Below are positions 27,421-27,766 of a stretch of DNA of 64,000 bases, piece by piece. A model generated the notes under the pieces. That model worked only from the letters and a program-made list of their open reading frames with translations, made no database searches and had not been told where the DNA came from. Origin of the DNA: the human T2T-CHM13v2.0 reference genome, Homo sapiens; the NCBI RefSeq assembly GCF_009914755.1, contig NC_060940.1; one strand, 5' to 3'. The translations under genes and the position numbers were made by a program. Position 1 is the stretch's first letter; each line of letters starts with the position of its first letter.

Positions 27421-27766
27421 GAATTTTTTATTTTGTTCTACTCGGTTTTATTCTTATTGCTCAGGCTTGAGTGCACTGGCCTCTTCTCAGCTCAACCTCC
27501 GCCTCTTGGGTTCGGGTGATGATGGTTCCACGTCAGCGGCCCTCCGCCTCTTGGGTTTGCGTGACGGTTCCACATCACCGACCCTCCGCCTCTTGGGTTC
27601 GGGTGATGATGGTTCCACGTCAGCGGCCCTCCGCCTCTTGGGTTTGCGTGACGGTTCCACGTCACCGACCCTCCGCCTCTTGGGTTCGGGAGGTGGTTCC
27701 ATCTCAGCCGCCCTCTGCCTCTTGGGTTTGCGTGGTTTTTCTGCCTCAGCCTCCTGAGTAGCTAAG
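27421..27766 (-). mobile_element. Alu right-arm remnant, internally amplified and exonised as the NPIPB C-terminus and 3' end
   Basis: The minus strand reads AGCTACTCAGGAGGCTGAGGCAGA ... GAACCCAAGAGGCGGAGGTTG ... GAGCTGAGA ... CCAGTGCACTCAAGCCTGAGCAATAAGA, then A-rich sequence, colinear with the Alu right arm. Confidence 0.85.
27447..27452 (-). terminator. Candidate NPIPB poly(A) signal AATAAA (second copy at 27427-27432)
   Basis: TTTATT on the + strand about 35 nt beyond the stop codon. Confidence 0.7.

What the first reader, a model, noticed from the sequence alone, without database searches (positions are those of the whole stretch)
27421..27766. NPIPB C-terminal NLS-like array, stop codon and poly(A) signal all come from one Alu arm
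Seen: after the VNTR the CDS reads LATQEAEAE, which is Alu AGCTACTCAGGAGGCTGAGGCAG. The Alu segment GAACCC..GAGGCGGAGG is then amplified into six PKR(R/Q)R motifs in 42/45-nt units, with an 87-nt block duplicated. Alu sequence resumes: its GAGCTGAGA gives the TGA and its 3' end reads AAGAATAAAA. Knowledge: PKRRR fits the monopartite importin-alpha consensus K(K/R)X(K/R); coding Alu exaptations are usually antisense internal exons. Inference: a sense Alu was turned into a copy-number-tunable multivalent NLS plus a complete 3' end.
Basis: partly seen in the sequence, partly recalled or inferred. Interest (0 to 1): 0.8.

Follow-up and report, generated by a model that had tools for sequence, protein, structure and literature searches.

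The report
Alu-built basic tail of NPIPB11
The end of the human NPIPB11 protein, its stop codon and the start of its 3' untranslated region are built from an amplified piece of an Alu repeat; this is real but already published, and the gene's annotated poly(A) site lies further on, in sequence shared with relatives that lack the Alu.

Summary
Confirmed. On the gene (minus) strand, window 27765-27441 aligns to a profile built from 41 Alus of this window (E 1.3e-10 and 3.6e-12; the best of 200 shuffles scored 4.4 bits). A 42/45-nt piece of the Alu right arm is repeated and gives six PKR(R/Q)R cores. The TGA at 27489-27487 is Alu sequence, put in frame by a 4-nt deletion private to this subfamily.

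This core is already in print (Bekpen 2017; Martinez-Gomez 2019; Cantsilieris 2020). The papers also cover predicted NLSs and mass-spectrometry peptides from the NPIPB6 tail.

The hexamers 20-24 nt before that end sit in a block that NPIPA copies also carry, and those copies have no Alu body.

In this one haploid genome the array has 1, 3, 4, 6 or 8 units among paralogs, and there are five different stop positions.

New here but unproven: the same Alu sits at chr16:14.72 Mb, full length, with a target-site duplication and a single-copy 5' flank. The tail may therefore have arisen at a duplication junction rather than by insertion, with NPIPA having lost it. NLS function remains inferred.

The parts
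27769..29899 (-). Coding 126-nt VNTR of NPIPB11 exon 8, read in two frames within one ORF
   Evidence: TRF period 126, 16.7 copies, 94% matches. Translation switches SADDN -> MIISR -> SADDN. Pfam PF20885 MII repeat, E 3.9e-184.
27764..27769 (-). VNTR-Alu junction: TCCC (27769-27766) can be read as either VNTR or Alu, followed by 2 extra bases TT
   Evidence: Read directly. Pairwise alignment to the window-Alu consensus starts at consensus 166 with a 2-nt insertion. The VNTR unit normally continues ...AAGACACCTCCC.
27727..27763 (-). Alu right arm, first part (about model 170-207), encoding [13 protein letters not shown]
   Evidence: nhmmer hit, model 168-246 to window 27765-27693, E 1.3e-10; translation.
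27490..27726 (-). Six tandem units (42, 42, 45, 42, 45 nt and a terminal 21-nt part) of Alu segment ~196-240. Each starts with a P-K-R-(R/Q)-R core followed by an acidic or proline-rich spacer
27487..27489 (-). Stop codon TGA in Alu-derived sequence. The homologous TGA in the five internal units is out of frame (+2)
   Evidence: Compared with paralogs that read ...LSKLRT... through TTGAGTAAGCTGAGAAC, this subfamily lacks 4 nt.
27435..27486 (-). Rest of the Alu body, here 3' UTR.
   Evidence: nhmmer hit, model 194-280 to 27523-27441; hexamer list. The same stretch is coding in the B2, B6 and B15 types.
27392..27434 (-). A-rich Alu tail with a CCCACACTCC island (27404-27395) and a second AATAAA (27432-27427)
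   Evidence: The same tail follows the full-length Alu at G000:C16:14.72 Mb.
27351..27391 (-). Family-wide 3' end block: AATAAA at 27380-27375 and 27376-27371, 24 and 20 nt before the RefSeq end at 27351. Shared with Alu-less NPIPA copies, where its AAC TAA is the stop codon
   Evidence: with the hub annotation for the end. NPIPA sequences were read in 2 of 8 loci, and the VNTR-to-anchor spacing is 51 nt in 8 of 8. The NPIPA ORF ends at that TAA in 7 of 8.

Best explanation
Window 27769-27351 (minus strand) is the 3' end of NPIPB11's last exon. The coding VNTR is joined, through a 4-nt overlap, to about position 166 of the sense strand of an old Alu. The Alu right arm supplies the codons for [14 protein letters not shown] 42-45-nt piece of it (about positions 196-240) has been tandemly duplicated, so its PKRRR-coding core occurs six times, separated by acidic or proline-rich spacers. 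The last copy runs on into the rest of the Alu, where a subfamily-specific 4-nt deletion brings an Alu-derived TGA into frame. The mRNA then continues through the remaining Alu body and its A-rich tail to the poly(A) region common to the whole NPIP family (AATAAA at 27380-27371, end at 27351). Shown here: the anatomy, the Alu homology, the frame logic and the variation among paralogs. Inferred (about 50%): the reiterated PKRRR cores act as classical basic nuclear-import signals in a disordered tail, with their number changed by unequal exchange between units.
For: Alu homology: (E 1.3e-10 and 3.6e-12; best shuffle 4.4 bits). Unit structure. Frame logic: the TGA homologues in the 5 internal units are in frame +2 and only the terminal one is in frame. 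Paralogs without the 4-nt deletion read on to other stops. Amplification series in the same genome: 1 unit (L026, L027), 3 (L017, L018), 4 (L009, L010-12, L013-15, L016), 6 (this window), 8 (L002-L008, identical to each other over 573 nt). Translation of the tail: peptides VDEVEQSPKPK, EAEAQQLPKPK and HCTQAWAIR were validated for NPIPB6 (supplementary table of PMC6924539), and all three occur in my translation of the B6-type tail. Poly(A): plus the RefSeq end; the block is shared with NPIPA. For NLS: K-R-R-R fits the K-(K/R)-X-(K/R) rule (recalled). In IPSE, 124-PKRRRTY-130 is the NLS and PKAAATY abolishes it (passage). Bekpen 2017 predicted at least 4 NLSs and concluded that the C-terminal part is needed for nuclear localisation (passages). 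Among 38 units from 10 distinct paralog sequences, the 15-nt core varies in 3 of 15 columns (2 are the CpG of CGG) against 19 of 30 spacer columns (Fisher p 0.011). Mean pairwise difference is 0.052 against 0.264. This last comparison is descriptive, because the units are not independent.
Against: For the anatomy: Rfam's 7SL model does not detect the fragment. RepeatMasker-based papers disagree on the subfamily: AluY in Bekpen and Cantsilieris, AluSx4 plus AluSq2 in the Martinez-Gomez supplement. For the NLS role: NPIPA constructs lacking this tail were also mainly nuclear, and the partial NPIPB clone K1-4 was mainly cytoplasmic. No full-length clone with the whole repeat region could be made, so the published localisation data are confounded. 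16 of 38 cores carry Q, W or S in place of an R, so single cores are not strictly kept. The 2025 pangenome preprint predicts a transmembrane domain for this subfamily, so the topology of the tail is unknown. No 3'-end sequencing was available to me, so use of the upstream AATAAA copies as minor sites is not excluded.
Confidence: 0.75

Rival explanations
1. One reading: one Alu arm gives the array, the stop AND the working poly(A) signal (AATAAA at 27452-27447), so the Alu supplies a complete 3' end.
For: The hexamer exists in Alu-aligned sequence. It is kept in the B2, B6, B15 and B11 types, but not in the 1-unit copies L026/L027. Sense-oriented Alus are a known source of poly(A) sites (PMC7878741 and PMC2553571, search listing only).
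Against: The RefSeq transcript runs 96 nt past it to 27351. Two AATAAA copies lie 24 and 20 nt before that end. That block follows the VNTR directly in NPIPA copies, which have no Alu body.
Confidence: 0.12
2. The basic array has no import function. It is a tolerated by-product of an unstable Alu-derived minisatellite in a fast-evolving gene, and localisation is set by other parts of NPIP.
For: NPIPA without the tail is nuclear, and one NPIPB clone is cytoplasmic. Five different stop positions and 1-8 units among paralogs show little constraint on length. CpG decay of CGG to TGG or CAG is tolerated in 16 of 38 cores. Martinez-Gomez 2019 argue in their title and abstract that most coding Alus lack evidence of relevance (listing).
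Against: The core is far less variable than the spacer. The tail is translated in testis for NPIPB6. An identical core is a proven NLS elsewhere.
Confidence: 0.35
3. Origin as published: a 5'-truncated AluY retrotransposed into exon 8 of an NPIPA-like gene in the African-ape ancestor, and NPIPA shows the empty site.
For: Stated in Bekpen 2017 and Cantsilieris 2020 (passages); those authors had non-human primate clones. A weak candidate target-site duplication exists (CACCTCC before the Alu, CACACTCC after the tail; 7 matches with one gap; read by eye). Microhomology at the 5' junction is usual for truncated insertions (recalled).
Against: The same Alu (10 shared derived sites, same tail, colinear flank of 2.4 kb plus 0.75 kb) is full length at C16:14.72 Mb. 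There its 5' flank is single copy in the genome and it has a 13/15 target-site duplication. NPIPA lacks not only the Alu but also 4-8 nt of the VNTR unit that B-type copies keep (CACC[TCCC]), so it is not a clean empty site. In the flank tree NPIPA groups with the B2 and B11 types (support 99/97), inside the Alu-bearing copies unless the root is on the NPIPA stem. The full copy is 12.4% from the consensus of 41 window Alus, an age typical of old Alus, not of AluY.
Confidence: 0.4
4. The arginine-rich repeats work as something other than an import signal, such as a nucleolar or RNA-binding patch, or matter mainly as an autoantigen.
For: Bekpen 2017 report that IgG from healthy donors recognises the NPIPB C-terminal repeat region. 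Clustered RRR motifs are typical of nucleolar signals (recalled).
Against: No test of any of these here or in the passages read. The motifs are short and separated by acidic spacers.
Confidence: 0.1

Closest known systems
Published description of the NPIPB C-terminal repeat (Bekpen et al. 2017, bioRxiv 10.1101/116087; Cantsilieris et al. 2020, PMC7419210; Martinez-Gomez et al. 2019, PMC6924539)
   Same: It is the same object. The papers describe a ((P/R)(K/E)PKRRR(AA/VG)DVEP) repeat created by an Alu in exon 8. [quoted passage not shown] They report at least 4 predicted NLSs and peptides for the NPIPB6 tail.
   Different: The papers give 8 repeats 'fixed among all NPIPB duplicates', whereas this genome has 1, 3, 4, 6 and 8. 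They do not discuss the stop-codon mechanism. Polyadenylation gets 0 occurrences in Bekpen and Cantsilieris, and only generic mentions in Martinez-Gomez. They call the event an insertion, and the copy at 14.72 Mb is not mentioned in the passages I read. I could not see the figures or the bioRxiv supplements (Fig 3; Fig 5c; S7, S8, S13).
Alu 'C-terminal swap' exons in main isoforms (TTF1, ZNF101 and others in Table 1 of PMC6924539)
   Same: An Alu inside the last coding exon supplies the final residues and the stop codon.
   Different: Here the Alu piece has itself been tandemly amplified, and the family uses several alternative Alu-derived stops.
Classical monopartite NLS, e.g. IPSE 124-PKRRRTY-130
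   Same: Identical P-K-R-R-R core. In IPSE, mutation to PKAAATY disrupts the NLS.
   Different: IPSE has one copy at the C-terminus of a folded secreted protein. NPIPB11 has six copies spaced 14-15 residues apart, and none has been tested in isolation.
Alu-mediated segmental-duplication junctions at LCR16a
   Same: Cantsilieris 2020 report AluS elements at 9 of 14 LCR16a insertion boundaries. At C16:14.72 Mb, single-copy DNA meets NPIP-flank homology inside an Alu.
   Different: In this case the junction Alu would have become coding sequence. That is my inference and is not in the passages read.

Membership tests
Alu SINE-derived sequence | Significant, colinear alignment to an Alu model | tested here: met
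   nhmmer against a profile of 41 window Alus: E 3.6e-12 and 1.3e-10, covering model 168-280 with the repeat between. The best of 200 shuffles scored 4.4 bits.
Alu SINE-derived sequence | Sense orientation relative to the gene | tested here: met
   All hits are on the minus strand, the strand of NPIPB11 (hub annotation).
Alu SINE-derived sequence | A-rich tail after the body | tested here: met
   27434-27405 is A-rich, and the same tail follows the full-length copy in L028.
Alu SINE-derived sequence | Target-site duplication flanking the insertion at this locus | tested here: inconclusive
   Only a 7-match candidate with one gap at the NPIPB junctions (by eye). At L028 the full copy has a 13/15 duplication that abuts the unique flank. 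612 of 20000 shuffled 15-mers and 0 of 41 other Alu flanks reach 13.
AluY subfamily (as named in two papers) | Low divergence and Y-diagnostic bases | tested here: inconclusive
   The full copy L028 is 87.6% identical to the window consensus; the right arms of the 41 control Alus have a median of 89.2%. The NPIPB 1-unit copy is 76.8% identical. Diagnostic positions were not scored because no curated subfamily consensus was on hand. The Martinez-Gomez supplement lists AluSx4 and AluSq2.
Classical monopartite NLS | K-(K/R)-X-(K/R) core (consensus recalled) | tested here: met
   K-R-R-R five times and K-R-Q-R once.
Classical monopartite NLS | Binds importin-alpha and is sufficient and necessary for import | not testable with these tools
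   No assay was possible. The published localisation data use partial clones and are mixed.
Alu-derived poly(A) site | Hexamer inside the Alu 10-30 nt upstream of the mapped cleavage site | tested here: not met
   The Alu-body hexamer ends 96 nt, and the tail hexamer 76 nt, before the RefSeq end.
Alu-derived poly(A) site | The used signal is absent where the Alu is absent | tested here: not met
   The AATAAATAAATAA block follows the VNTR in NPIPA copies without an Alu body. I read it in L052 and L053, and the 51-nt spacing is the same in 8 of 8. Caveat: if the L028 duplication is real, this block was once the far end of that Alu's tail.
NPIPB3/4/5/11/12/13 subfamily | MII-repeat VNTR and an ...EPKRRRLS end | tested here: met
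   PF20885, E 3.9e-184. The tail is identical to that of seven other loci apart from one 87-nt block.
Copy-number-variable coding minisatellite | Head-to-tail units in frame whose number differs between copies | tested here: met
   TRF; 1, 3, 4, 6 or 8 units among 20 loci. Variation between human haplotypes was not tested, since only one genome is held.

The most novel reading that the evidence does not exclude
The NPIPB tail was not made by an Alu jumping into exon 8. It arose at a segmental-duplication junction. The VNTR was fused through 4 nt of microhomology to the middle of an old, full-length Alu whose original site is chr16:14.72 Mb (T2T), which still has its target-site duplication and a single-copy 5' flank. 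That Alu brought with it its long tail and at least 3 kb of flank, now the 3' end of every human NPIP gene. On this reading the Alu-bearing (B-like) end is the older state. The short NPIPA end is a secondary deletion of about 200 bp. Even the family-wide AATAAATAAATAA poly(A) block began as the far end of that Alu's tail. The Alu-derived stretch then evolved 3-9 times faster than its flank.
Probability: 0.4. Interest if true: 0.45.

Novelty: already known. Interest (0 to 1): 0.25.

Why it matters
NPIP is the gene of LCR16a, the core duplicon behind the 16p11.2 and 16p13 rearrangement hotspots, and one of the fastest-evolving ape gene families. How its proteins were rebuilt is therefore of interest. 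The Alu origin of the PKRRR repeat and its possible role in nuclear targeting are already in the literature, so the finding adds no new principle.

What this check adds is limited:
- the exact unit-to-Alu map;
- the 1-nt and 4-nt deletions that move the stop codon;
- evidence that the annotated poly(A) site is the family-wide one and not the Alu-body hexamer;
- a count of 1-8 units among paralogs, which contradicts 'fixed at 8';
- a testable alternative history (duplication-junction fusion, then loss in NPIPA).

The unit series is a ready-made allelic ladder for testing whether import strength scales with motif number.

Tried and rejected
- Rfam scan of 26500-28500 at E<=10. The 7SL model finds the neighbouring full Alus but not this fragment, so I built a profile from the window's own Alus instead.
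- The first unit count allowed 3 mismatches and also picked up the Alu's own upstream look-alike (CTCAGGAGGC..), giving 48 'units'. I redid it with 2 mismatches and got 38; only one search is used.
- I looked for NPIP VNTR or exon sequence next to the 14.72 Mb Alu. There is none in 8.5 kb upstream and no other non-Alu homology, so that locus is not a broken NPIP gene.
- Rooting the flank tree: an unrooted tree cannot separate 'gain in B' from 'loss in A'. Midpoint rooting falls on the 14.72 Mb branch, but gene conversion between LCR16a copies could mislead. No primate genome is held, so the question is left open.
- G-to-A hypermutation of the Alu (APOBEC-like) was considered. Of 15 B-lineage-specific changes, 5 are G>A and 3 are C>T; the other 7 are T>C, C>G (2), T>G, C>A, A>T and T>A. 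That is not a clean editing signature, so I dropped the idea.
- Complex prediction with importin-alpha was not attempted, because the tool's reference set is bacteria, archaea and phages only.
- Two paper-reading runs failed on term syntax and were re-sent correctly.

Full report
WHAT IS THERE

On the minus strand, which is the strand of NPIPB11, the last coding exon runs from 30078 to the stop at 27489-27487, and the RefSeq transcript ends at 27351 (hub annotation). A 126-nt coding VNTR (27769-29899, 16.7 copies) is followed by sequence that reads ...[17 protein letters not shown]. After that come six units, each beginning with P-K-R-(R/Q)-R, and the protein ends ...EPKRRRLS. The six cores start at 27726, 27684, 27642, 27597, 27555 and 27510, spaced 42, 42, 45, 42 and 45 nt. 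TRF reports period 42 (5.5 copies, 80% matches) and period 87 (2.8 copies, 94%) over 27496-27734.

IS IT ALU, AND MORE THAN CHANCE?

No curated Alu consensus was on hand, so I took 41 full-length Alus from this window, none overlapping the target, aligned them and built a profile.

- With all filters off, the profile hits only the gene strand of 27250-27850.
- Model 168-246 matches 27765-27693 (28.3 bits, E 1.3e-10).
- Model 194-280 matches 27523-27441 (33.5 bits, E 3.6e-12).
- Four weaker hits of model ~180/194/198-223 fall in the internal units.
- 200 dinucleotide shuffles gave 3 reported hits, the best at 4.4 bits.

The first hit extends through the spacer of unit 1. The spacers of other paralogs line up with the Alu stretch just before the core. 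So the whole 42-45-nt unit, about model 196-240, is Alu, and not only the GAACCC...GGAGG core. Rfam's 7SL model misses the fragment, although it finds the two full Alus just downstream.

THE STOP CODON

Each internal unit contains the same Alu-derived TGA, but in frame +2. Only the terminal copy has it in frame. Paralogs explain why.

- In the full-length relative of this Alu (L028), the frame used here would stop two codons after the core.
- All NPIP copies carry a 1-nt deletion there, and most read on as ...RRLSKLRT.HCTQA....
- The B3/4/5/11/12/13-type copies (this window and seven other loci) lack a further 4 nt, which puts the next TGA in frame.

Across the family the ORF ends at five different places:
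- RRRLS* in this subfamily;
- ...HCTQA* in L009;
- ...AWAIRINP* in L010-12 and L017;
- ...AIRRNL* in L026;
- in L013-15 and L018, after reading straight through the Alu A-tail (...WVEKKKKIKKQNKTHAPKTN*), at the very TAA that ends 7 of 8 NPIPA ORFs.

Of 12 B-type loci checked from the exon-8 start, 10 read through the array. The chr18 copy stops inside it. One locus (L027) lacks the exon-8 start.

THE POLY(A) SIGNAL

The first two end 96 and 76 nt before the annotated end. The pair at 27380-27371 ends 24 and 20 nt before it.

That pair lies in a block (27391-27351) which in NPIPA genes follows the VNTR directly, with no Alu body between. I read this in L052 and L053. In all 8 NPIPA loci the downstream anchor lies 51 nt after the start of the last VNTR motif. 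I had no 3'-end sequencing data, so minor use of the upstream hexamers cannot be excluded.

COPY NUMBER

The same haploid genome has 27 exon-8 starts and 20 Alu-bearing NPIP 3' ends. Unit counts are:
- 1 unit: L026, L027;
- 3 units: L017, L018;
- 4 units: L009, L010-12, L013-15, and L016 on chr18;
- 6 units: this window;
- 8 units: L002-L008, identical to each other over 573 nt.

NPIPB11 differs from the 8-unit copies by one 87-nt block. Bekpen 2017 wrote that the motif is 'fixed at ... 8 copies ... among all NPIPB duplicates'. That is not so in this assembly.

Among the 38 units, the cores are PKRRR 22, PKRQR 9, PKRWR 6 and PKRWS 1. The 15-nt core varies in 3 columns, two of them the CpG of CGG, against 19 of 30 spacer columns (Fisher p 0.011). 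Mean pairwise difference is 0.052 against 0.264. The units are copies of one another, so this is descriptive. It fits constraint on the basic core.

WHAT IS ALREADY KNOWN

- Bekpen et al. 2017 (bioRxiv 10.1101/116087; passages read). [quoted passage not shown] At least four NLSs were predicted, and the C-terminal part was judged 'required for the proper localization ... to the nucleus'. However, only partial clones were used, NPIPA without the tail was also nuclear, and clone K1-4 was cytoplasmic.
- Martinez-Gomez et al. 2019 (PMC6924539; section 18, passages and supplementary table rows read). [quoted passage not shown] Peptides VDEVEQSPKPK, EAEAQQLPKPK and HCTQAWAIR were validated for NPIPB6, and RepeatMasker called AluSx4 and AluSq2.
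- Cantsilieris et al. 2020 (PMC7419210; passages read). [quoted passage not shown]
- The 2025 pangenome preprint (passages read) treats the VNTR, but the passages found do not treat this tail.

My searches found no further paper on the tail. 'Polyadenyl' has 0 occurrences in Bekpen and Cantsilieris, and only generic mentions in Martinez-Gomez. I could not see the figures or the bioRxiv supplements, so details such as the stop mechanism may be drawn there.

LIKELY FUNCTION

The K-R-R-R core fits the classical monopartite rule (recalled). The identical PKRRR is the NLS of schistosome IPSE, lost on mutation to PKAAATY (passage). Together with the core conservation and the published prediction, I put the chance that the array works as a reiterated import signal at about one half. 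The main rival is a tolerated by-product.

A DIFFERENT HISTORY (NEW, UNPROVEN)

The own-genome search also found L028 at C16:14.72 Mb. It holds the same Alu at full length.
- It shares 10 derived sites with the NPIPB copy.
- It has the same long tail with the CCCACACTCC island.
- It is colinear with the NPIP 3' flank for 2.4 kb (93.7%) plus 0.75 kb.
- Upstream of the Alu there is no NPIP sequence, and that flank is single copy in the genome (1 match).
- The 15 nt before the Alu match 13 of 15 nt at the very end of the tail, abutting the unique flank. 612 of 20000 shuffles and 0 of 41 other Alu flanks reach 13.

This is what an original insertion site looks like.

NPIPA ends are not a clean empty site, because they lack 4-8 nt of the VNTR unit that B-type copies keep before the Alu. 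I built a tree of 1.1 kb of flank from 20 of the 29 loci, leaving out 9 near-duplicates by my own choice. In it, NPIPA groups with the B2- and B11-type copies (support 99/97). The 14.72 Mb copy joins the other side on a long branch, and the midpoint root falls on that branch.

The simplest reading is that the VNTR was fused (TCCC microhomology, then TT) to a pre-existing Alu of another locus, and that NPIPA later lost about 200 bp. The published insertion reading stays possible if the root lies on the NPIPA stem and the 14.72 Mb copy is a later Alu-Alu recombinant. Only outgroup primates can decide.

If the fusion reading is right, the family-wide poly(A) block was once the far end of that Alu's tail.

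RATE

The Alu-derived stretch diverges faster than its flank.
- L028 against the 1-unit B copy: 24/125 in the Alu body against 41/1093 in the flank (Fisher p 2.6e-9).
- B-specific changes number 15, against 3 specific to L028 (relative-rate p 0.005).
- Among 11 pairs compared for the post-array segment, 9 show an excess at p<0.05, for example 8/83 against 17/1083.

CpG content, selection, or conversion of L028 by other Alus could each contribute. I did not separate these.

VERDICT

The poly(A) claim fails against the annotation and the paralogs. The NLS role is plausible and untested.

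Noticed in passing
L028 = G000:C16:14723050-14726239 (Alu at locus 1305-1590, tail to 1696): A full-length copy of the same Alu, with the same tail and at least 3 kb of NPIP 3'-flank homology. It has a single-copy 5' flank and a 13/15 target-site duplication, and there is no NPIP exon nearby. It may be the donor locus of the 3' end of all human NPIP genes.
   Followed up: partly
window 27769-30078 (minus strand): Within one ORF the VNTR is read in two frames: SADDN..., then MIISR..., then back to SADDN.... 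This is already described in the 2025 pangenome preprint.
   Followed up: no
L013-L015 (C16:80.2-80.4 Mb) and L018 (C16:29.33 Mb): These paralogs translate straight through the Alu body and its A-tail, giving a lysine-rich end (...EKKKKIKKQNK...). They stop at the same TAA that ends NPIPA ORFs.
   Followed up: partly
L016 (C18:11.78 Mb): The solo chr18 copy has 4 units but an in-frame TAA inside unit 2's spacer and a PKRWS core, as expected of a decaying copy.
   Followed up: no
window 27435-27505 and the same stretch in L009, L010, L026: The post-array Alu segment differs 3-9 times more between paralogs than the adjacent 1.1 kb flank (9 of 11 pairs at p<0.05). The cause was not resolved.
   Followed up: partly
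L041 (C16:15.11 Mb): One of the 8 NPIPA-type copies has a different frame history in exon 8. It ends at a TGA 108 nt before the anchor instead of ...RMIISRN*.
   Followed up: no
window 26556-26841 and 27067-27215: Two more Alus lie just downstream of the gene end: a minus-strand copy (7SL-model hits at 26556-26703 and 26725-26841) and a plus-strand copy. They are also hit by the Alu-derived miRNA families mir-1268 and mir-3135, below gathering score.
   Followed up: no
literature: The Alu is called AluY in two papers but AluSx4 plus AluSq2 in a RepeatMasker-based table. The full copy is 12.4% from a consensus of local Alus, which suggests an old element.
   Followed up: partly
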